From positions 544,001-608,000 of the forward strand of contig CAVUZH010000014.1 in the NCBI GenBank assembly GCA_963745835.1: a stretch of 64,000 nt of DNA. The letters run 5' to 3'. The notes under the pieces were generated by a model. That model was not told where the DNA came from, made no database searches, and was given only the letters and a program-made list of their open reading frames with translations. Within the stretch, counting starts at the first letter, position 1, and each line of letters opens with the position of its first letter. Both the position numbers and the translations under genes were made by a program. This DNA comes from an uncultured delta proteobacterium (GTDB lineage Bacteria; Desulfobacterota; Binatia; UBA9968). Below are positions 24 through 44,129 of the stretch, in pieces.

Positions 24-563
24 CTATTCGTCGTCGTACTGGAGAATCGAAAATACATCATAGGGCCGCAACTTGTCCCGGCCCTTCAAAAAGGAAAGTT
101 CGATCACGAACGCGCACTCCACCACCTTAGCGCCGAGTCTCGAGACCAATTCGGCGGTCGCAGCAGCGGTTCCGCCAGTGGCAATCAAATCATCGGCAAT
201 CACCACGCGGGCGTTGGCCCGAATCGCATCGGTGTGGATCTCCAGGGAATCCGTGCCGTATTCCAAGTCATAACTAGTGCTATGAGTATCGTAAGGCAAC
301 TTTCCAGGTTTGCGAACGGCGCTAAATCCGGCATTCAATGTATAGGCAAGCGCCGCACCGACAATGAAACCTCGTGATTCAATCCCTAAAACCGTATCGA
401 TTCTCTGGTCGCGATAACGATCTGCTAAGATGTTGATGGTTTTGGCGAACAGCGGACCGTTACCAAGCAATGGCATGATATCCTTGAATAGAATCCCCGG
501 TTTTGGAAAATTGGGCACATCGCGGATTGCCTGGCGAATACGTTCGCTTTCGTTGTTGTTCAT
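24..563 (-). CDS. apt: adenine phosphoribosyltransferase
   Basis: IRDVPNFPKPGILFKDI, GIESRGF, RKPGKLP, PRPP motif VIADDLIATGGT; start placed at MNNNESE. Confidence 0.95.
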   Translation of the reverse strand: MNNNESERIRQAIRDVPNFPKPGILFKDIMPLLGNGPLFAKTINILADRYRDQRIDTVLGIESRGFIVGAALAYTLNAGFSAVRKPGKLPYDTHSTSYDLEYGTDSLEIHTDAIRANARVVIADDLIATGGTAAATAELVSRLGAKVVECAFVIELSFLKGRDKLRPYDVFSILQYDDE

Positions 564-667
564 GCGCGTTGAGCTCCCATTGTGGGGTGTAGCCGTCAAG
601 CCCCCTCACTGTAAATTGATGCAGAAATGGTGATTTTAGACGTGAGATCTATCTAGGCAGCAAATTA

Positions 668-1822
668 TCAGCCCCATATCTGTCGGCTGGTTTCCGCTAC
701 CATCGCCAGTTTTCGTTTCTGATCATCCTCGCTGATCAAATTGCCGACCACATCCGAGGAAAAACCACATTGCGGGCTAATGGCAATTTGTTCCAGAGGT
801 ACATACTGGCTTGCCTGATCAATGCGCTTTTTCAACTCTTCGATGGTTTCCAACTGCGGCACTTTTGTACTAACCAACCCTAAAACGATGATCTTCCCCT
901 TGGGCAGGAACCGTAGCGGCTCGAATCCTCCGGCTCTCGGCGTGTCATATTCAAATAAAAAGCGATCGTGCTTCAATTCATTGAGAACTCGTTCAGCAAT
1001 CTCATCATATGTGCCTTCCCGATGCCACATGCTGCGTTGATTGCCTCTGCAAAGATGAATTCCGAAAGTCACGTTATCGAAGCCATCGATGACTGCATTG
1101 TCAGCCTTCAATGAGCGATTAAAGTTCTCATCCGGATTTTCACCGCGCGCGCGCATTGCATCGAGGGACGGTTTGTCGACGTAGGCAGTATATCCGGGCG
1201 CATCGATTTGAATATAGCGGCAGCCGGCGGCGACCAATGCGCCGATCATTTCTCTCTCGACTTTCACGACGTCGGCCATGAATTCATCCATATTAGAATA
1301 GATCGCACTGGAGTTCTGCCAATCGAAGCGTTGCGAAATTCGATCAGGTCCGATCAGAGTCACCTTAGCCGCGCGTTGCGCAACCTGACTGACGAAGCGA
1401 TATTCTTCCAGCGGAGCGTTGCACGAAAGCCGAAGCTTTTCCACAACCGGGCGGCGCTGGGCCACAGCCGTAGACTTATGCTCGCCCTGGTCCGGTATTT
1501 CCCAACGCTGTAACGGGCTGCTTCCCTGGACACGGCTTTCGTAGAACTTCAGACTCGGCCGACCTGCGTCAAAACCGGCTACGGATTCGCCGAAGCTGTC
1601 TTGGAAGTTTAGGCGCCGGTATTCGCCGTCGGTGACGATCGCCAAGCCAGCTTCTTCCTGCAATCGCACGGCGCCGCGGATGCATTGATCTTCTATCGCC
1701 CGCAACTCAGTTGCGCTGAGCCTGCCCTCGTCATAGCTCACGCGAGCTTCTTTCAATTTCGCGGGTCTTAATAGGCTACCGACAACGTCGTTGCGGATAT
1801 CGGCTAACTCCTTCATTGACAT
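668..1822 (-). CDS. cobalamin-independent methionine synthase II family protein (Cys form)
   Basis: DVVGSLLRP, VTDGEYRR, IQIDAP, Zn ligands HLCRGN, FEYD, ISPQCGF; ATG overlaps the nlpD stop (TGATG). Confidence 0.9.
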   Translation of the reverse strand: MSMKELADIRNDVVGSLLRPAKLKEARVSYDEGRLSATELRAIEDQCIRGAVRLQEEAGLAIVTDGEYRRLNFQDSFGESVAGFDAGRPSLKFYESRVQGSSPLQRWEIPDQGEHKSTAVAQRRPVVEKLRLSCNAPLEEYRFVSQVAQRAAKVTLIGPDRISQRFDWQNSSAIYSNMDEFMADVVKVEREMIGALVAAGCRYIQIDAPGYTAYVDKPSLDAMRARGENPDENFNRSLKADNAVIDGFDNVTFGIHLCRGNQRSMWHREGTYDEIAERVLNELKHDRFLFEYDTPRAGGFEPLRFLPKGKIIVLGLVSTKVPQLETIEELKKRIDQASQYVPLEQIAISPQCGFSSDVVGNLISEDDQKRKLAMVAETSRQIWG

Positions 1823-2619
1823 CACTCCGTAATTAACTTTTCCGCCTCTACGATATCGGACGACTCGCGGCAGCACAACTGAGGAAGATAGAGGAGCGGA
1901 TCTTGCGCCACGTTGTTTTTGCGGATCTCAAGATGCAGATGAGGTCCCGTCACTCTTCCGGTGCTACCTACTTTAGCAATAGTATCGCCTTGGGCAACAA
2001 ACTGTCCTGCGGCCACAAGATTTACCTGGTTATGCGCATAGACCGAAACCAGGCCGCCGGCGTGCCGTAGAATCACTAGGTTACCATAGCCCCGCAGTTG
2101 ATCACTGTATATCACCTCCCCCTTCTCGATCGCCCTGATGGGCGTTCCTTCCTGGGCGGAGATATCGATACCGTCGTGGAAACTGGCGCCACGCCGGCCA
2201 AAACGGGAATTGATGCCTCCCTCGATGGGCCAAATAATGGCATTGTCCGGGAGATCGCTAAATTTGGGAACCGATGGAATAGTCACATTCGAATCGGTCG
2301 GGGTAATCATCTCCACCGGCAACTGGCGAGCCGCGCCCGGTATAAGTAGTTTTTGCCCGACATGAATTTGGTTTGGGTCTCTAAGTCGATTCACACGCGC
2401 CAGCTCCGCGTAATTCAGATCATACGCCCTGCCGATGCGATATAAAGTTTCACCCGGCTTTACAACATGATAGATGCCTCCCTTAGCAGGCGGCGGCGCT
2501 GGCGCCTGTGTCGCGCAGCTGGCGATGTGCCAGAACAACATCAAGCCTAAGAGCCGGTAAGGACACCGGGAGGCTAGTCTTGCCAACCGAATTTTCCCCA
2601 GAGTTTGACGAATCGGCAT
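1822..2619 (-). CDS. nlpD: LysM + M23 peptidase lipoprotein (NlpD-like)
   Basis: LysM (YHVVKPGETLYRIGRAY), M23 motifs HDGIDI, YAHN, GPHLHLEIR; lipobox-like IASC; follows pcm. Confidence 0.85.
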   Translation of the reverse strand: MPIRQTLGKIRLARLASRCPYRLLGLMLFWHIASCATQAPAPPPAKGGIYHVVKPGETLYRIGRAYDLNYAELARVNRLRDPNQIHVGQKLLIPGAARQLPVEMITPTDSNVTIPSVPKFSDLPDNAIIWPIEGGINSRFGRRGASFHDGIDISAQEGTPIRAIEKGEVIYSDQLRGYGNLVILRHAGGLVSVYAHNQVNLVAAGQFVAQGDTIAKVGSTGRVTGPHLHLEIRKNNVAQDPLLYLPQLCCRESSDIVEAEKLITE

Positions 2620-3296
2620 TCGCCAAGATCTGCCTGATGAAAACCGGACGGCTCACGTTGAACCAGCTTCAACACCTGAGATTCATCATCCCCCACAGGT
2701 ATAATGAGCTTACCCCCTACCGAAAGCTGCTCGATCAAAGGCCGGGGTAAATCGGGAGCACTGGCAGCAACGATGATCGCATCGTATGGGGAGTGCTCCG
2801 ACCATCCTACTGTTCCGTCTCCTACGTGTAGCGCGATGTTGTGAAATCCAAGCCCATCTAAAAGCTCCCTTGCCTTGCGCGAGAGAGCGCGGATTTTTTC
2901 CACCGAAAAGACGTTAAAGCAAAGCTCGGCAAGCAGAGCTGTTTGGTAACCTGATCCGGTGCCGATTTCCAGGACTTTTTCTTTACCGCTCAGGCCAAGC
3001 GCTTCGGTCATTCTTGCAGCCATGTAGGGTTGAGAAAGCGTCTGCTTCTGCCCGATCGGCAAGGCGCTGTCATCATACGCCCGGTTGATCAGTCCGGAGT
3101 CGATAAAAAGATGTCTTGGAATGCGCCGCATGGCGGCGATAACACGGCGGTCCTGAATTCCACGGGCGATAAGTTGATCTTGAACCATTCTTTCTCTGGC
3201 CCAAGCGTAATCTGGAGGTTTCGTGTCGGTAAGCTTCACGCTAATGATGGGTGACGCAATCGGCGGCTTGAGCGACCGTGATCGCTGGTCAAGCAT
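2574..3296 (-). CDS. pcm: protein-L-isoaspartate O-methyltransferase
   Basis: RERMVQDQL, IPRHLFI, VLEIGTGSGYQTALL, PYDAIIV; start uncertain. Confidence 0.93.
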   Translation of the reverse strand: MLDQRSRSLKPPIASPIISVKLTDTKPPDYAWARERMVQDQLIARGIQDRRVIAAMRRIPRHLFIDSGLINRAYDDSALPIGQKQTLSQPYMAARMTEALGLSGKEKVLEIGTGSGYQTALLAELCFNVFSVEKIRALSRKARELLDGLGFHNIALHVGDGTVGWSEHSPYDAIIVAASAPDLPRPLIEQLSVGGKLIIPVGDDESQVLKLVQREPSGFHQADLGECRFVKLWGKFGWQD

Positions 3297-3507
3297 TTTA
3301 CTTGCAGATGGCAAAATGGGTCGATACCCAAAACTCGGTTGCAAAGTGTTGCTGAATTATCGGCCGATACCCGGTGATATTTTTATCATAGCGTGAAAAG
3401 GTTTTCTATCAGTGACTAGCGAGAATCAATCGTATTGATGCGGCGATCTTTATACTGCGCAACTAACCAAGAAAGAAGGCCAAAAAGTTTTCCTAACGAC
3501 AAATGCG

Positions 3508-4428
3508 TTATCCTCCGGCGTCGGCCGAGAGGATAAAGATTCTATCCTGCGGGTGAATCTTGGTGTTAGGATCGCGCACGAAATTTGTGCCGTTGATGTT
3601 GCAAGCGAAGCCGGCAAGCAAATCGGTCCCGTCCGTATTGATGACACGGCCAACCAACATCGGTAGTCTCTGCGCAACAGCCGAAAGCACATGAGTGAGA
3701 GTGCCGTCTCCGGGTAACAAAAGAGAAATTACTTTGGTCTTCGCAAGCAAGCGGGCAACGCCGAACAATTCAACAGTGCAACTAAGCGGCGTGTCTTCGG
3801 TGCACTCGCTAAAGTTCGCGCGCTGCTGCCAGAGCATTAAAGCCCGCGCATAATCGTCCGGCGCGTTCATGTTTAAGAAACTCAGCCCTTCCGGGTCGAA
3901 GCGGCGGAGTTCCTCCTCACCGACTTTGCGCGTCCGCACTTTATCGTAAAGAAATATCGGCCTAAGCTCGCCGCGTTCGAGTTGCTCTTCCAGCAGCGGC
4001 ACTACGCTCCTTCGGTAAACCGCGTGAAGAGGCTGAAAACGATCCTGCCAGTAGGGAACGACCACATCGTGATTCGAGATTTGCGAGGTCAAAAACGAGA
4101 TGAGTGGAAGATTTAGAAATGGCGCATCGCACGAAGTAACAAACGCCCCCGTTCCGCTCGTAGCCTTCAATCCATAATAAATGCCGCCTACGGGGCCTTG
4201 GTAAGCTACCTCATCACGAACCACCGTTGCCGCCAAGGGCGGCAGCTCTTGGTCCGGCGCCGCCACCACAACGATCCGCTTGAATTTCTGCTCGAGCCTG
4301 CGCACAAGATGGTCTATCAAAGGTTCGTTGCCAAACGGCAGCAAGGCTTTAGGACGACCCATGCGCGAGCTCTTGCCGCCGGTCAAGATGACGGCCGAGA
4401 AATCCTCCACAGTTTGGTCAAGGACCAA
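3508..4428 (-). CDS. mobA: molybdenum cofactor guanylyltransferase MobA fused to a C-terminal MoaD/ThiS-like sulfur-carrier domain
   Basis: ILTGGKSSRMGRPKALL, GPVGGI, CDAPF, QPLHAVY, FLNMNAPDDY; C-terminal ~95 aa VELFGVAR...FILSADAGG ending Gly-Gly. Confidence 0.85.
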   Translation of the reverse strand: MVLDQTVEDFSAVILTGGKSSRMGRPKALLPFGNEPLIDHLVRRLEQKFKRIVVVAAPDQELPPLAATVVRDEVAYQGPVGGIYYGLKATSGTGAFVTSCDAPFLNLPLISFLTSQISNHDVVVPYWQDRFQPLHAVYRRSVVPLLEEQLERGELRPIFLYDKVRTRKVGEEELRRFDPEGLSFLNMNAPDDYARALMLWQQRANFSECTEDTPLSCTVELFGVARLLAKTKVISLLLPGDGTLTHVLSAVAQRLPMLVGRVINTDGTDLLAGFACNINGTNFVRDPNTKIHPQDRIFILSADAGG

Positions 4429-38144: not shown

Positions 38145-39387
38145 GTGAAATCTCTTAATCGCTTCTCGCGTATGTCTACGGGACTTTGGTTCGTTCCGTT
38201 GATGTGCGTGCTCGCAGGCGTCGGTCTATCGTTTGGCACAATTGCCATCGATAAGGCCTACGACTATGAGCTTATCCCGCAGTCGATCAGCGGCGGTCCC
38301 GACGCAGCGTTGGAGATTTTGGGAACGGTCGCGGCATCGATGGTCAGTCTTGCAGCACTTGTACTGACCATCACCATGGTGGTCGTGCAACTCGCAATGG
38401 GTCAGTTCTCGCCACGAATCGTCCAGCGCATCCTGCAGGACAAACCCAGCCAGCTCGCCATTGGCACTTTTGTAGGGACTTTCGCGCACGCCATGCTGAC
38501 GCTCCGCGAAGTGCAAACCGGAAGCGAGGAACGTGGTTCCCGGCGTCGCTGTGATCCTGGCCTTCGTGCTCGTCATCATCAGCATCATGGTGCTTGTCTG
38601 GTATGTGAATCACATCGGACGCTCTCTGAGAGTATCAGCGCTGATCGAGCTTGTCGGGACAGATACACGCAAACTGCTCGATAGGCTCTATGCAGATGCT
38701 GGCGAGACACGCAGCCCTGAACGGCCGACGATCTGCGCGCCCCACTCGGGCGTGATCACTCAGATAGATCACAAAGAGCTGGTGCGAATTGCCGAGGCGG
38801 GGAATTGCGTTCTGACGCTTCTGCCATCACTGGGCGAATTTGTGCCGGCAGGCGCGCCGCTGTTCGAGATTGCGGGCGCACCCGATCGGATCGACACCGA
38901 CGCCACGGTGCGCGCGATCCAGCTTGGCCCCGAACGGACTCTTGACCAGGACGTGGCCTTCGGCCTGCGGATGCTCGTCGACATCGCCGAGCGGTCGCTG
39001 TCCGACGGACCGTTTCTCGATCCGACGACGGCAGTCCAGGCAATCGATCGGCTGCACGATTGCCTGCGCCAGCTGGCGCCACGTTCGTTTCCTGACGGTC
39101 GATTCCGCGACGACAAGGGCGAGGTGCGGTTGGTGACGCCGTCGATGACCTGGGAGGACTATGTCCACCTTGCGTTCGATGAAATCCGAATGGCGGGCGC
39201 GGGATCACCGCAAGTTGCACGTCGACTGCGCGCAGCTCTGCAAGACTTGCTTACGATTGCGCCGCCGGAACGTCAACTTGCGCTGAAGGAGCAGCTTACT
39301 TTACTGCAGTCCGGTATTGAAAGCGCCATCGGCGAAGGGAGCGACCGCACCTATTCCAAGCGCGGCGATCCACGCGGACTCGGTTGA
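38145..39387 (+). pseudogene. DUF2254-like membrane protein, frameshifted near 38530
   Basis: LWFVP, VVQLAMGQFSPRI; then RTLDQDVAFGLRMLVDIAERSLS, DPTTAVQAIDRL. Confidence 0.8.
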
Positions 39388-41902: not shown

Positions 41903-43024
41903 CTAAGCCCAGAGAACGGCTGCAGTTTTGGTAACTAGCTCCAGTTTACTCCGTTGGTTCTCAAGTGAAATATTGTTGCCGACGATCGAGGAGGCAAAGC
42001 CGCACTGTGGACTGATAGCCAAACGTTCTAGCGGAACATATCGAGTCGCTTCAGTCACCTTCTCTGTTAGTGACGCCAACGACTCGAGCTCAGGATTCTT
42101 CGTTGTGATCAAGCCGAGAACTATGATCTTGTCTTCAGGCACTTCTCTGAGGGCCTCAAACGAGCCCGAGCGCTCGTCGTCATATTCCAAGAGCAAGCGC
42201 TGTGGCTTTAGCTTGCGAAACAATTCGCCGCTGATAGCTTCATATCCTCCCTGCGACAGCCAACGGCTGCCTTGGTTGCCGCGTCAGACGTGAAACCCGA
42301 AAGTCACATCGCCAAATCCGTCCACCACCGCGTTGTCCAGCTCGATGCCTAAAGAGAGCCACTGGTTAAGACTCCAGCCAAGGTTTTCGTAGAAGGCTCG
42401 CGTTTTGGCATCGAGCAAGAGGCCATAATGCGGCGCGTCGATTTGAATGTAAGTGGCGCCGAGGCGCACGAGTTCGGCAACCTCCTCGCGCAGGATGCTG
42501 ACGATGTCGGCGAGAAACGCATCGAGTGTGGGATACGCCGTTCGCGAATATTTTGGCGACCAAAAATTGGCCCATAGTGTCGGGCTCGGAATGGTCACTT
42601 TGGGAATTCGGCTGGTCTTTTTCTTAAGGTAGGAAAATTCATCGGCTGAGAGATATCGACGACGGCTCAACTTTTCGACCACACCCAACTTATCTGGCCG
42701 CGGGTGACGATGCACACCCAGTGAGTCGTACCAGTCGCCCCAAAGAAAAGCATCAAGCCCGAACGCACCGAAACCGTCGACCGCTGCCGTCATTTGACTC
42801 TGAAACGATTGCCGCCGCATCTCGCCATCGGTAACAATCTCCAATCCGGCATTTTCTTGCAAGGCAATCGCCTCGTCGACGGCGTGATCCTCGATTTCCT
42901 TAAATTGCACCGTGCTGAGAGTGCCGGCGGCGAGTTGTTTTTGCGCGGCAACCAACTCCGCAGGTCGCAGAAGACTTCCCACCACATCGGCATGAACCCT
43001 AACAGGCTGCTGAAAAAGACCCAT
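41903..43024 (-). CDS. cobalamin-independent methionine synthase II family protein, predicted selenoprotein (TGA 42284-42286 = Sec)
   Basis: two listed ORFs share one frame and join as FGFHV-U-RGNQGSRWLSQGGYE; TGA aligns with the Zn-ligand Cys of HLCRGN in the paralogue; SECIS-like hairpin follows. Confidence 0.82.
42255..42271 (-). promoter_or_regulatory. SECIS-like hairpin
   Basis: GGCAGCC-GTT-GGCTGTC; loop G is the 20th nt after TGA. Confidence 0.7.
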
Positions 43025-43052
43025 AGGGTTCGTTGCGTTCAATCGTCTCGCT
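43003..43052 (+). repeat. MITE-like dispersed repeat, partial copy overlapping the gene start
   Basis: CAGGCTGCTGAAAAAGACCCATAGGGTTCGTTGCGTTCAATCGTCTCGCT aligns with 22056-22106. Confidence 0.65.
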
Positions 43053-43140: not shown

Positions 43141-44129
43141 TCACGGCCGAATTTTATACTTTCGCTCGATCTCTTCGACATAGCCGCTTTTGACTACCTT
43201 TTCGAGAATGCGCTGATCGAGAAGATCCTCGACGTTGTATTTCGCTATTTTGGGATCACGCAGCGCGACGATCTCCTGCACGGTTTTCAAGCCTTTGACC
43301 GTCACAAAGGTATACGACGTCAGATCATCGAGGAGAAGCTTGTATCCTGTTTCTGCGAGTTGCCTGTCTGTCTTGATATGTTTCTGCAGAACGGCGACAC
43401 CCTTTTCTTTCTGAGCGCGCATAACCGCACTCGCTTCTATCATCGCTTTAATAAAGTTCTCAACCGTCTGAGGATTTTTTTGAATGAAAGACTCCGCGCT
43501 CATATAAGGGCTGGAAGGAAGAGCGATCCGGCTCAAATCTAGCAGCACTTTGACCCCTAGGCCTTGGAGCCGCACCGATTGCAATTTATCCAAAGCGGCT
43601 CCGTCGATAATCCCGTTGCCAGAGCTTGGGCGATCACAGTGCTATCGCCAATCGCCTGGATACTGATGTTATCCCTCTGAGGATCCAATCCCATTTCTCT
43701 CAGCGACAACATAGTAAGGCTCCAGAGAAGCCCGCTGAAATCCTGTACGCCGACTTTTTTACCTCTCAGGTCGCGCGGATTGGTAATCGAAGGCGATACC
43801 AAAAAATCGTAGGACGCTCTTTCGGCGAACAGTGACAAGAGAATTTTGAGCTTCGCCCCCTGCGCCGCGGCGGAAAGCATACTCGACGCGCTGCCACGGA
43901 CAAACTGCACCTCATTAGAGACCAGAGCCGAAACTTGCAGAGGCGCGCTGCGGACGGTGACAAGATCCGCCTCCAATCCATGCTTGGCAAAGATTCCTTC
44001 GTCCTTGGCAAGCCAGAGAGGAGTCCCCGCCGCAGCCACACCGGAGTACGCAACTCTGATGGACTCGGCCTGAAGCGGTGAAGCAAACAGAACCACAGCT
44101 ATAATGATCGAGAATGTTTTGGCAAGCAT
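43141..44129 (-). pseudogene. NMT1/SsuA-like substrate-binding protein, frameshifted near 43610
   Basis: signal peptide, PLWLAKDEGIFAKHGL, DLRGKKVG; C-terminal half in an adjacent frame. Confidence 0.8.

What the first reader, a model, noticed from the sequence alone, without database searches (positions are those of the whole stretch)
41903..43024. Selenocysteine at the zinc-ligand position of a MetE-II-like enzyme
Seen: one in-frame TGA gives FGFHV-U-RGNQGSRW, while the paralogue at 668-1822 reads FGIHL-C-RGNQRSMW. Homology continues after the TGA (LEYD, LGLITTK, ISPQCGF). A 7-bp hairpin with a GTT loop starts 13 nt downstream, and no equivalent stem follows the paralogue's TGC. Known: MetE binds Zn through His-x-Cys plus a distal Cys to activate a thiol, and bacterial SECIS elements lie just 3' of UGA with a G at the start of the apical loop. 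Inference: a selenoenzyme with a Se-ligated zinc site, outside the classical redox selenoprotein families. I cannot say whether it has already been catalogued.
Basis: partly seen in the sequence, partly recalled or inferred. Interest (0 to 1): 0.85.

Follow-up and report, generated by a model that had tools for sequence, protein, structure and literature searches.

The report
Selenocysteine in a MetE-like enzyme
A soil bacterium's methionine-synthase-like enzyme reads through a stop codon to put selenium where its relatives have a zinc-binding sulfur, a use of selenium that the selenoprotein catalogues I could check do not list.

Summary
The minus-strand gene 41903-43042 is a single-barrel MetE-family protein (Pfam PF01717). 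It has one in-frame TGA at 42284-42286, aligned with the Cys of the His-x-Cys zinc motif.

- **Conservation of the TGA.** In the window's order, 58 of 59 orthologue matches from 58 of 123 genomes carry exactly one TGA. It lies in the same column in all 20 loci I read. It is also present in 29 of 80 metagenome loci.
- **Cys relatives.** Cys orthologues at 62-75% identity are widespread, so this is a classic Sec/Cys pair.
- **Translation past the TGA.** The 126 codons after the TGA stay open and evolve like coding sequence.
- **Hairpin.** A 7-bp hairpin with a G(G/U)U loop starts 13 nt after the TGA. All 65 distinct Sec sequences have a GGU or GUU loop, against 16 of 50 Cys sequences. Full pairing is seen in 46 of 55 Sec versus 1 of 26 Cys sequences that encode the same peptide.
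- **Machinery.** The genome has selA-selB-selD, tRNA-Sec, and SECIS hairpins of similar build in selD and fdhA.

Neither a 2026 selenoprotein review nor NCBIfam lists such a family.

Not shown: selenium incorporation, zinc binding, the substrate.

The same genome also holds an RtcB with TGA at a conserved Cys.

The parts
41903..43042 (-). Coding sequence of the selenoprotein: 379 codons from TTG 43042, or 373 from ATG 43024, with stop TAG at 41903-41905. It is a single-barrel MetE-family ('methionine synthase II') protein.
   Evidence: ORF listing with TGA=U. Pfam PF01717 at E 1.7e-18, 67.4 bits against a cut-off of 21. Best NCBIfam hit NF005085 at 239.8 bits, below its cut-off of 313. AlphaFold model with pLDDT 86.7 and pTM 0.88. 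Foldseek to 1ypx and T. maritima MetE with TMq 0.70-0.74. The start codon is not settled.
42284..42286 (-). In-frame TGA, codon 253, read as selenocysteine. It aligns with the Cys of the His-x-Cys zinc motif.
   Evidence: Same column in 20 of 20 loci read. 58 of 59 orthologue matches in the order have exactly 1 TGA. 119 of 120 best full-length database relatives have Cys there. No other letter in contigs of 4 runs.
42255..42271 (-). SECIS-like hairpin: 5' arm 42271-42265, loop GTT 42264-42262, 3' arm 42261-42255. The loop begins 22 nt after the T of the TGA.
   Evidence: On 31 distinct sequences, 91% of cells pair, against 73% or less when the partners are slid. The loop is GGT or GTT in 65 of 65 Sec sequences against 16 of 50 Cys sequences. 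All 7 pairs form in 46 of 55 Sec against 1 of 26 Cys sequences with the same peptide. Synonymous variation is low at Gly258, Ser259 and Arg260. Build and spacing match the fdhA SECIS of the same genome, whose loop starts at +21.
42290..42292 (-). Codon of His251, the presumed zinc ligand (His of His-x-Sec).
   Evidence: Invariant in alignment A3. It lies at the end of predicted strand 247-252. Translation.
42185..42187 (-). Codon of Glu286 (in LEYD), the presumed third zinc ligand.
   Evidence: Invariant in A3. It lies at the end of predicted strand 282-286. Read from the sequence. The equivalence to Glu665 of E. coli MetE is inferred from position in the barrel and is not resolved by the sequence alignment.
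42002..42004 (-). Codon of Cys347 (in SPQCGF), the presumed fourth zinc ligand.
   Evidence: Translation. Invariant in A3. It aligns with the distal Cys region of MetE in the HMMER alignment.
668..1876 (-). Cys paralogue in the same window (42% identical), used as the internal control. It has TGC at the equivalent codon and no hairpin.
   Evidence: It pairs at 4 of the 7 hairpin positions, with a local MFE of -2.0 against -10.9 kcal/mol.

Best explanation
**What it is.** A genuine selenoprotein gene of an uncultured soil bacterium. Close relatives carry record titles 'Candidatus Binatia' or 'Deltaproteobacteria' MAG.

**How the TGA is read.** The mRNA's UGA at codon 253 is decoded as selenocysteine by SelB and Sec-tRNA(Sec). 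These are recruited by a 7-bp hairpin with a G(G/U)U apical loop whose stem starts 13 nt downstream.

**The protein.** It is a single (beta/alpha)8-barrel member of the MetE catalytic-domain family, the 'cobalamin-independent methionine synthase II' group represented by PDB 1YPX. Sec replaces the first Cys of the metal site, giving His251-x-Sec253 ... Glu286 ... Cys347.

**Most likely function.** The site binds Zn(II). The zinc binds and deprotonates an amino-acid thiol such as homocysteine, so that it can take an alkyl (methyl) group from a donor that is not known. The selenolate ligand would tune the zinc site: softer, always deprotonated, and easier to reduce after oxidation.

**Shown here:**
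- the conserved TGA;
- the Sec/Cys pairing with orthologues;
- purifying selection on the part after the TGA;
- the hairpin with Sec-specific features;
- the Sec machinery;
- the fold and the conserved ligand and substrate-binding residues.

**Inferred:**
- actual Se insertion;
- the Zn-Se bond;
- the substrate;
- why Se is favoured.
For: 1. **Conserved TGA.**
   - In 41 close genomes, all 23 matches at 60% identity or more have 1 TGA, while roughly 100 paralogue matches at 35-44% have none except two stray stops. Those two stops lie at other positions.
   - The TGA is in the same column H-x-U-R-G-N-Q in 20 of 20 loci.
   - Across the whole order, 58 of 123 genomes have an orthologue, and 58 of 59 matches have exactly 1 TGA.
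   - 23 of the 25 genome-contig loci that reach the site have TGA.
   - 29 of 80 metagenome loci have TGA and 51 have Cys.
2. **Cys orthologues.** 119 of the 120 best full-length proteins (62-75% identity) have Cys there. In a tree of 89 rows the Sec forms of the order sit in one clade of 39 Sec plus 2 nested Cys, inside the Cys orthologues.
3. **Translation continues past the TGA.**
   - Exactly 126 open codons follow the TGA in most orthologues.
   - R-G-N-Q right after the TGA is invariant in 31 of 31 sequences while its codons vary synonymously.
   - Identity downstream is 0.771 at codon positions 1+2 and 0.407 at position 3. Upstream it is 0.808 and 0.446.
4. **Hairpin.**
   - 91% of cells pair, against 73% or less when the partners are slid.
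   - Pair 21-33 keeps pairing through changes on both sides in 4 of 31 sequences and 7 of 65.
   - The loop is GGU in 56 and GUU in 9 of 65 Sec sequences. In the 50 Cys sequences it is GCU 32, GUU 12, GGU 4, GAU 2.
   - Among sequences with the same peptide QGSRWL, the Arg260 codon is CGG in 50 of 55 Sec against 1 of 26 Cys. All 7 pairs form in 46 of 55 against 1 of 26. Mean local MFE is -11.1 against -7.2 kcal/mol.
5. **Machinery and SECIS in the same genome.**
   - selA, selB and selD lie together on contig C22, and tRNA-Sec is on C13.
   - The selD hairpin has a 7-8 bp stem and a GUU loop. Two fdhA hairpins have 6-7 bp stems and a GGUCU loop starting at +21, against +22 here.
   - SelA is found in 50 of the 57 genomes with the TGA form.
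   - TGA is the commonest ordinary stop in this genome, closing 662 of 1524 long frames.
6. **Enzyme family.**
   - PF01717; 1YPX at E 1.7e-45; MetE fold.
   - H251, U/C253, E286 and C347 are invariant.
   - S23, E74 and D202 are also invariant. In one search they align with the GS, GE and DEP motifs of Candida MetE. I equate these with the homocysteine-binding Ser433, Glu484 and Asp599 named in passages of PMC7857596; that mapping is my inference.
7. **Independent assemblies.** They keep the TGA.
Against: - There is no direct evidence of selenium in the protein, of zinc in the site, or of any activity.
- The core 5 bp of the hairpin come for free from coding S-R-W-L and are also present in Cys forms. 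Only the two outer pairs and the loop letter are Sec-specific.
- Only one pair shows changes on both sides. RNAalifold keeps 5 pairs, with a weak covariation term of -0.39.
- The single-sequence folding energy is ordinary (z = -0.30).
- There is no Rfam match.
- A 3-nt loop is at the small end of what I recall bacterial SECIS models allow.
- The Sec and Cys sets are phylogenetically clustered, so the counts overstate independence.
- 7 of the 57 MAGs with the TGA form gave no SelA match at E <= 1e-30. I checked four of them. Three (96, 100 and 89% complete) also lack selB and selD. The fourth has selB and selD on one short contig. Since the three genes lie side by side in G000, one unbinned contig could explain the triple absence, but this is not shown.
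- The NCBIfam scores are below the cut-offs of every methionine-synthase model, and the genome has a complete MetH. 'Methionine synthase' is therefore not established.
- Gene neighbours give no functional clue.
Confidence: 0.88

Rival explanations
1. Sec is inserted, but it is not a passive zinc ligand. It would be the reacting atom itself: a selenolate that takes up and passes on a methyl or alkyl group (ping-pong), or a redox-active Sec paired with Cys347. The metal site would then be remodelled or absent.
For: Sec usually sits at reacting positions. The review's table lists methyltransferase-type selenoproteins (passages of PMC13188914). The Sec forms differ from the Cys forms at residue 263, mostly Ser against mostly Val, so the surroundings are not identical.
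Against: All four ligand positions and the three substrate-binding positions are invariant between the Sec and Cys orthologues, which argues for an unchanged site. The residue-263 difference is explained by the hairpin, because the TCN codon supplies two stem pairs.
Confidence: 0.07
2. The UGA is read through without selenium (near-cognate or suppressor tRNA, giving Cys, Trp or Arg), or it works as a leaky stop that yields both a 252-residue product and a full-length product.
For: No experiment shows Se. Three MAGs with the TGA form lack detectable selA, selB and selD.
Against: The TGA aligns exactly with an invariant Cys. It is followed by a hairpin with Sec-specific loop letters, built and spaced like the fdhA SECIS of the same genome. 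Sec machinery is present in G000 and in 50 of 57 carrier genomes. TGA is the main ordinary stop in this genome. A 252-residue product would lack two of the four ligands.
Confidence: 0.03
3. The gene is broken or split. Either it is a nonsense pseudogene, or it is two genes whose products (252 aa plus about 106 aa from TTG 42223) assemble.
For: Table 11 gives two ORFs. The assembly does contain frameshift-split genes nearby.
Against: The same TGA occurs in 58 of 59 orthologue matches of the order and in 29 metagenome loci. The 20 codons between the TGA and the first possible restart are the most conserved part: amino-acid identity 0.76, with R-G-N-Q invariant while its codons vary synonymously. 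Independent assemblies agree.
Confidence: 0.02

Closest known systems
Cobalamin-independent methionine synthase II family (single-barrel MetE homologues; NCBIfam NF005085/PRK06520 and NF004875/PRK06233; PDB 1YPX from Listeria)
   Same: Same length and fold. 1YPX matches at E 1.7e-45 over residues 14-378, with Foldseek TMq 0.74. The H-x-C-R-G-N motif, LEYD and SPQCGF are shared. Orthologues with Cys at 62-75% identity carry this name in NCBI records.
   Different: Sec replaces the first ligand Cys. Scores are below both curated cut-offs: 239.8 against 313 and 224.5 against 576. The biochemical function of this family is not established in anything I read.
MetE, cobalamin-independent methionine synthase (E. 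coli, T. maritima, Candida; two barrels, about 750 aa)
   Same: The catalytic barrel fold matches (TMq 0.70-0.74). The metal-site pattern is His-x-Cys ... Glu ... Cys. Zinc activates homocysteine as a thiolate, and the E. coli ligands are His641, Cys643, Glu665 and Cys726 (passages of PMC7857596). The motifs that I equate with the homocysteine-binding Ser, Glu and Asp are conserved.
   Different: There is no N-terminal folate-side barrel: Meth_synt_1 was not found anywhere in the genome. About 11 extra residues follow the His-x-Cys/Sec motif. This is my count from the 33-residue spacing here against 22 in E. coli, and it is exactly the stretch that encodes the hairpin. Sec replaces Cys. The methyl donor is unknown.
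Core (folate-independent) methionine synthases MesA, MesB, MesC and MesD (Price et al. 2021, PMC7857596)
   Same: They are single-barrel MetE homologues of 386 aa or less, with the HCEC zinc site conserved and methyl donors other than methyl-folate (abstract and passages).
   Different: This protein is not one of these four families by score. The MesD structure 3RPD matches only at E 5.8e-8, and the related NCBIfam models score far below their cut-offs. None of the passages I read mentions Sec.
Known bacterial selenoproteins with bSECIS, for example FdhA and SelD of the same genome
   Same: An in-frame UGA is followed within about 15-30 nt by a stem of 6-8 bp whose apical loop begins G-G-U or G-U-U. 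Cys homologues exist. The same machinery is used.
   Different: The family is new to the lists I could check. In FdhA, Sec binds Mo/W in a redox site (recalled). Here the site is a non-redox Lewis-acid zinc site.
Recently predicted metal-binding or methyltransferase selenoproteins (arsenite methyltransferase, SaoB/SaoC, MbdU, HgcA, and a Cu/Zn efflux transporter family; table and text of the 2026 review PMC13188914)
   Same: Sec lies outside classical thiol-redox motifs, and it is proposed as a metal or metalloid ligand (passages).
   Different: None of them belongs to PF01717. None places Sec in a catalytic zinc site of an alkyltransferase barrel.

Membership tests
Bacterial selenoprotein gene (SelB/SECIS-dependent UGA decoding) | An in-frame UGA aligned with Cys in homologues, with conserved sequence on both sides | tested here: met
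   119 of the 120 best database relatives have Cys there. The flanks F-G-F-H-x and R-G-N-Q are conserved.
Bacterial selenoprotein gene (SelB/SECIS-dependent UGA decoding) | The UGA is conserved in orthologues of other genomes | tested here: met
   58 of 59 matches in 58 of 123 genomes of the order, and 29 of 80 metagenome loci.
Bacterial selenoprotein gene (SelB/SECIS-dependent UGA decoding) | A hairpin just 3' of the UGA with G at the start of the apical loop, at a spacing like known bSECIS | tested here: met
   A 7-bp stem, a G(G/U)U loop in 65 of 65 sequences, and the loop at +22. The fdhA SECIS of the same genome has its loop at +21. SelB binding itself was not tested. The numeric limits of bSECIS models are recalled, not checked.
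Bacterial selenoprotein gene (SelB/SECIS-dependent UGA decoding) | selA, selB, selC and selD are present in the genome | tested here: met
Bacterial selenoprotein gene (SelB/SECIS-dependent UGA decoding) | Selenium demonstrated in the polypeptide | not testable with these tools
   This needs 75Se labelling or mass spectrometry.
MetE catalytic-domain family (Pfam PF01717, Meth_synt_2) | A profile match above the curated cut-off | tested here: met
   67.4 bits against a cut-off of 21, over residues 20-351.
MetE catalytic-domain family (Pfam PF01717, Meth_synt_2) | The (beta/alpha)8 barrel fold of the MetE C-terminal domain | tested here: met
   Model with pLDDT 86.7. Foldseek to 1ypx and to T. 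maritima, Neurospora and Candida MetE gives probability 1.00 and TMq 0.62-0.74.
MetE catalytic-domain family (Pfam PF01717, Meth_synt_2) | The zinc ligand set His-x-Cys ... Glu ... Cys | tested here: inconclusive
   His251, Glu286 and Cys347 are invariant, and position 253 is Sec instead of Cys. Metal binding was not tested, and the coordinates of the model could not be inspected.
Canonical methionine synthase MetE (TIGR01371 / NF003556) | Two-barrel architecture and a score above the equivalog cut-off | tested here: not met
   44.4 bits against 929.95, and 49.5 against 541. No Meth_synt_1 domain was found in the genome.
Methionine synthase II family models (NF005085 subfamily, NF004875 equivalog) | A score above the curated cut-off | tested here: not met
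   239.8 against 313, and 224.5 against 576. It is related to these models but cannot be named by them.
Any catalogued selenoprotein family | A match to a selenoprotein-specific NCBIfam model, or a listing in the 2026 review table | tested here: not met
   The NCBIfam release 20.0 scan returned only methionine-synthase models. The review PMC13188914 has 0 occurrences of PF01717, methionine synthase, MetE or homocysteine.

The most novel reading that the evidence does not exclude
This would be the first natural enzyme in which selenocysteine is a ligand of a catalytic, non-redox zinc site: Zn(His)(Sec)(Glu)(Cys) in a MetE-type alkyltransferase.

It would also be one case of a wider, unrecognised habit of this soil lineage, which replaces conserved, metal-site cysteines of non-redox enzymes by Sec. 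The same genome has an RtcB RNA ligase with a conserved TGA at the Cys of G-Y-D-I-N-C-G.

The SECIS seems to have grown out of a hairpin that the coding sequence for S-R-W-L already formed. In turn it fixed an amino-acid change, Val to Ser at residue 263.
Probability: 0.5. Interest if true: 0.8.

Novelty: new variant of a known kind. Interest (0 to 1): 0.66.

Why it matters
- **Chemistry.** Selenoproteins are overwhelmingly redox enzymes. A Sec that serves as a ligand of a Lewis-acid zinc centre would be a different use of selenium.
- **A natural experiment.** Sec and Cys orthologues at 62-75% identity exist side by side. They could show how a selenolate changes zinc reactivity, ligand exchange and resistance to oxidation in thiol-alkylating enzymes such as MetE, MetH, Ada and farnesyltransferase.
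- **Annotation.** No full-length record of the closest relatives appeared among the database proteins, which suggests that gene callers cut these genes in two.
- **Evolution of a SECIS.** The core stem pre-exists in Cys forms because of the peptide it encodes.
- **Scope.** The family is common in soil and rhizosphere metagenomes. It is present in about half of the genomes of its order.

Tried and rejected
- **Rfam.** A scan of 42100-42400 at E <= 10 found nothing.
- **Single-sequence folding.** It does not single out the hairpin.
- **RNAalifold.** It keeps only the inner 5 pairs.
- **Gene neighbourhood in the window.** The amidohydrolase_2 and NMT1-type binding-protein genes are shared only within the genus.
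- **Neighbours in other Sec loci.** A TauE/SafE permease lies convergent downstream in 33 of 65 distinct Sec loci (53 of which have enough flank) and in 0 of 50 Cys loci. An isochorismatase-family gene lies upstream in 16 Sec loci and 1 Cys locus. Neither is in the window, and I read this as lineage synteny, not as a functional link.
- **Cultured relative.** The nearest one found is on a Rubrobacter radiotolerans plasmid (58% identity, Cys), and its context is uninformative.
- **Stray stops in paralogues.** G021:C157 (TGA) and G016:C663 (TAG) lie at other, non-conserved positions and are not Sec.
- **Cys-form genome G473.** I considered that it had lost the Sec machinery, since it has no SelA match. 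It does have a selD fragment at a contig edge, so I dropped the idea.
- **Epoxyalkane:coenzyme M transferase.** I considered a link to this enzyme but had no reference sequence from a tool, so it is untested. The 25 rows shown of 115 plasmid records carried only 'methionine synthase II family' names or none.
- **RNA-library contig.** X15 (96% alike) spans 42164-42472. By the tool's own warning this does not show transcription. Parts of the gene without cover in the laid runs mean nothing.
- **Genome-wide TGA+hairpin scan.** Most of the 19 places look like shadow frames by their peptides. Only C22:88880 was checked, and it is a shadow frame.
- **Literature.** No paper in the held library has 'selenoprotein' with 'methionine synthase II', or 'selenocysteine' with 'COG0620'. 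'Selenocysteine' with 'Binatota' gave one unrelated paper. The terms methionine synthase, MetE and homocysteine occur 0 times in PMC13188914, PMC12013277, PMC9312934, PMC2398784, PMC1976440 and PMC5029168 (term look-ups only). The two Haft papers (2023, 2025) are not held. Their families were covered only through the review table and NCBIfam.
Full report
**What is there**

On the minus strand of the window lies an open frame from TTG 43042 (or ATG 43024) to TAG 41903-41905. It is interrupted by a single TGA at 42284-42286. Read through, it gives 379 residues.

- They match Pfam PF01717, the catalytic domain of cobalamin-independent methionine synthase, over residues 20-351 (E 1.7e-18, 67.4 bits, cut-off 21).
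- The TGA reads F-H-V-U-R-G-N-Q.
- The paralogue at 668-1876 in the same window reads H-L-C-R-G-N-Q.
- Homology goes on after the TGA to the end of the protein.
- The 13th nucleotide after the TGA starts a 7-bp stem (42271-42265 with 42261-42255) closed by a GTT loop (42264-42262).
- The five Cys paralogues of the same genome pair at only 1-4 of these 7 positions.

**Is the TGA real and conserved?**

The window is G000:C14:544001-608000 of a 7.3-Mb assembly in 25 contigs. Six paralogues of this protein family are in the genome, and only this one has a TGA.

- **Close genomes.** In 41 close genomes (G000 included), all 23 matches at 60% identity or more carry exactly one TGA. The roughly 100 paralogue matches at 35-44% carry none, apart from one TGA and one TAG. 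Those two lie at other, unconserved places.
- **Same column.** In 20 of 20 loci that I read, the TGA is in the same column.
- **Whole order.** Of 123 genomes, 58 have an orthologue. By family that is 54 of 89 plus the own genome, 3 of 5, and 0 of 28. Of the 59 matches, 58 have exactly one TGA and 1 has Cys.
- **Phylum sample.** In a sample of 400 further genomes of the phylum, only one genome, of the same family, had an orthologue.
- **Record titles.** They name 'Candidatus Binatia' or 'Deltaproteobacteria' MAGs for most. A few MAGs are labelled Chloroflexota, Methylomirabilis, Gammaproteobacteria or Acidobacteria. 23 of the 25 loci that reach the site have TGA and 2 have TGC.
- **Metagenome scan.** A scan with a Cys-orthologue alignment returned 80 loci: 29 with TGA and 51 with Cys.
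- **Independent assemblies.** Contigs of three DNA runs from three studies (soil and rhizosphere), and one contig of an RNA library, cover 42284-42286 with no other letter.

Four unpublished genomes (G012, G018, G467, G488) are among those counted.

**Is the part after the TGA translated?**

- In most orthologues exactly 126 codons stay open after the TGA.
- The four residues right after it, R-G-N-Q, are invariant in 31 of 31 sequences, while their codons vary synonymously.
- Among 28 orthologues, identity downstream of the TGA is 0.771 at codon positions 1+2 and 0.407 at position 3. This is much like the upstream part, at 0.808 and 0.446.
- TGA is otherwise the commonest stop of this genome, closing 662 of 1524 long frames.

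A pseudogene or a split gene does not fit.

**Sec/Cys pair**

The 120 best full-length proteins in the large protein collection are 62-75% identical, and 119 of them have Cys at the site. Their sources name them 'cobalamin-independent methionine synthase II family protein' from many phyla.

I built a quick maximum-likelihood tree of 89 rows with the Sec/Cys column masked, rooted on the five own paralogues.

- The Sec forms of the order make one clade of 39 Sec rows with 2 Cys rows nested inside it.
- That clade lies within the Cys orthologues.
- Three further Sec rows, from MAGs with other labels, sit just outside it.
- At least 5 changes of state are needed, 3 of them forced by well-supported branches.

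Cys is therefore the older state, Sec arose in or near this lineage, and some members went back to Cys. The direction depends on the outgroup root.

**The hairpin as a SECIS**

- **Pairing.** On 31 distinct Sec sequences, 91% of cells of the 8-pair helix form standard pairs, against 26-73% when the partners are slid.
- **Changes that keep pairing.** One pair (columns 21-33) keeps pairing through changes on both sides in 4 of 31 sequences, and in 7 of 65 in the larger set. All other changes are one-sided, to G-U.
- **Synonymous variation.** It is depressed at Gly258 (GGC in 26 of 30), Ser259 (AGC or AGT only) and Arg260 (CGG or CGT only).

The best control is the comparison with the Cys orthologues.

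- **Shared core.** The inner 5 pairs are also present there, because the codons for S-R-W-L are self-complementary.
- **Loop.** The loop is GGU (56) or GUU (9) in 65 of 65 Sec sequences. In the 50 Cys sequences it is GCU 32, GUU 12, GGU 4 and GAU 2.
- **Same peptide.** Among sequences that encode QGSRWL:
  - Arg260 is CGG in 50 of 55 Sec against 1 of 26 Cys.
  - All 7 pairs form in 46 of 55 against 1 of 26.
  - Mean local MFE is -11.1 against -7.2 kcal/mol.
- **Outer pairs.** They come from a Ser codon (TCN) at residue 263, where the Cys forms mostly have Val (GTN). The RNA seems to have imposed an amino-acid change; this is my inference.
- **Same genome.** The selD SECIS has a 7-8 bp stem with a GUU loop. 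Two fdhA genes have 6-7 bp stems with a GGUCU loop starting 21 nt after the U of UGA, against 22 nt here.

Against this evidence:
- The single-sequence folding energy is ordinary.
- RNAalifold's covariation term is weak.
- Rfam has no match.
- The Sec and Cys sets are each related among themselves, so the counts are not independent events.

**Machinery**

selA, selB and selD lie side by side on contig C22, and selD itself has a TGA. A tRNA-Sec (anticodon TCA) is on C13.

SelA is found in 110 of the 123 genomes of the order, and in 50 of the 57 with the TGA form. I checked four of the seven without it.

- Three lack selB and selD too.
- One has selB and selD on one short contig.

Since the three genes are adjacent in G000, a single missing contig could explain the triple absence, but this is not shown. 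All five MAGs with other phylum labels that I checked have SelA.

**What the protein is**

- **Closest structure.** The closest solved structure is 1YPX, the Listeria 'putative vitamin-B12 independent methionine synthase family protein' (E 1.7e-45, residues 14-378). U253 aligns with the Cys of its H-I-C-R-G-N.
- **Model and fold.** An AlphaFold model (pLDDT 86.7, pTM 0.88) matches 1ypx and the C-terminal barrels of T. maritima, Neurospora, Candida and Arabidopsis MetE (TMq 0.62-0.74).
- **Ligand positions.** H251, U/C253, E286 and C347 are invariant in an alignment of the Sec protein, 23 Cys orthologues and a paralogue. They sit at or just after the ends of predicted strands, as metal ligands of a barrel enzyme should.
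- **Zinc site of MetE.** Passages of PMC7857596 give the zinc ligands of E. coli MetE as His641, Cys643, Glu665 and Cys726. They state that zinc deprotonates the sulfur of homocysteine.
- **Substrate-binding positions.** S23, E74 and D202 are also invariant. They align with the GS, GE and DEP motifs of Candida MetE. I equate these with the homocysteine-binding Ser433, Glu484 and Asp599 of that paper.
- **Limits on naming it.** The protein scores below the cut-offs of all NCBIfam methionine-synthase models. It is not MesD, since 3RPD matches only at E 5.8e-8.
- **Other methionine synthases.** The genome has a complete MetH and no MetE N-terminal domain.

I therefore commit to 'zinc-dependent alkyl transfer to an amino-acid thiol, probably homocysteine, with an unknown methyl donor'. 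It is probably an accessory enzyme rather than the main methionine synthase. This part is inference.

**Why Sec?**

This is inference from general chemistry, recalled and not tested. A selenolate is deprotonated at all physiological pH. It is a softer and stronger donor, which should lower the Lewis acidity of zinc, make the bound substrate thiolate more nucleophilic and speed ligand exchange. It is also easier to reduce after oxidation than a thiol. A rival reading is that Sec itself takes part in the transfer.

**Is it known?**

I found no record.

- The 2026 review of the prokaryotic selenoproteome (PMC13188914; term look-ups in its text and table) has no PF01717, methionine synthase, MetE or homocysteine.
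- The same holds for five further catalogue papers.
- Two full-text searches found nothing.
- NCBIfam release 20.0 has no selenoprotein model that matches.
- No full-length record of the nearest relatives (87-89% identical) appears among the database proteins. This suggests they are stored as truncated products.
- The two Haft papers were not held, and supplements were closed.

**Seen in passing**

A crude genome-wide scan for an in-frame TGA plus a G(G/U)U hairpin also picked out a full-length RtcB gene at G000:C18:176835-178292 (PF01139, E 7.4e-170).

- Its TGA lies in G-Y-D-I-N-U-G-V-R, followed by a 7-bp hairpin.
- Among the 21 relatives' matches at 72% identity or more, 11 have a TGA, 9 have Cys and 1 has a TAA.
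- The column is the same in 6 of 6 loci read.
- The review does not mention RtcB.
- That this Cys is a metal ligand of RtcB is recalled, not tested.

**Verdict**

This is a real and, as far as I could check, uncatalogued selenoprotein: a new variant of a known kind. The recoding mechanism and the enzyme family are both known. What is new is the place of Sec, in a catalytic zinc site.

Noticed in passing
own genome, outside the window: G000:C18:176835-178292 (+), TGA at C18:177141: A full-length RtcB RNA ligase gene (PF01139, E 7.4e-170) has one in-frame TGA at the Cys of G-Y-D-I-N-C-G-V-R, followed by a 7-bp hairpin with a GTT or GTC loop. Among relatives' matches at 72% identity or more, 11 have a TGA, 9 have Cys and 1 has a TAA. 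The column is the same in 6 of 6 loci read. RtcB is not mentioned in the 2026 selenoproteome review. This is a likely second selenoprotein at a conserved Cys that I recall as a metal ligand.
   Followed up: partly
window 43141-44129 (-) and 38145-39387 (+): Two genes near the finding are each split into two overlapping frames. One is an NMT1/THI5-like binding protein just upstream of the selenoprotein gene, which is in one frame in the relative L016. The other is a DUF2254 membrane protein. These are frameshifts, either real or assembly errors. An fdh gene on C16 is split likewise.
   Followed up: partly
own genome G000:C18:417150-417902 (+): This FdhA-like gene has two in-frame TGAs. One is at the usual Q-A-R-L-U-H-S position with a hairpin. 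A second lies 46 codons upstream (K-T-N-Q-*-E-G-R), and its meaning was not examined.
   Followed up: no
L018:2612-3532 (-) and 32 other Sec loci; L019:629-1426 (+) and 16 others: A TauE/SafE-family permease gene lies convergent just downstream of the Sec-form gene in 33 of 65 distinct Sec loci and in 0 of 50 Cys loci. An isochorismatase-family gene lies upstream on the same strand in 16 Sec loci and 1 Cys locus. Neither is present in the window.
   Followed up: partly
L054 and L055: Nearly identical Sec-form genes sit in MAGs labelled Gammaproteobacteria and Candidatus Methylomirabilis. Another Sec form is in a MAG labelled Chloroflexota, which groups with the Binatia sequences. This points to recent transfer or binning errors. 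All of these MAGs have SelA.
   Followed up: partly
window 43003-43042: In the laid metagenome runs the summed contig depth jumps to 94-4425 over the first codons of the gene (the H-A-D-V-V-G-S-L-L-R-P region), with many loose ends at 43003 and 43037. This short stretch is shared by many paralogues and organisms.
   Followed up: no
own genome: C18:499679-500779, C14:544674-545801 (window 668-1876), C20:58591-59685, C9:20424-21536, C19:176890-178041: The genome holds five further single-barrel MetE-family paralogues (39-42% identical, all with Cys) beside a complete MetH and no two-barrel MetE. That is an unusually large set for a family whose function is unproven.
   Followed up: partly
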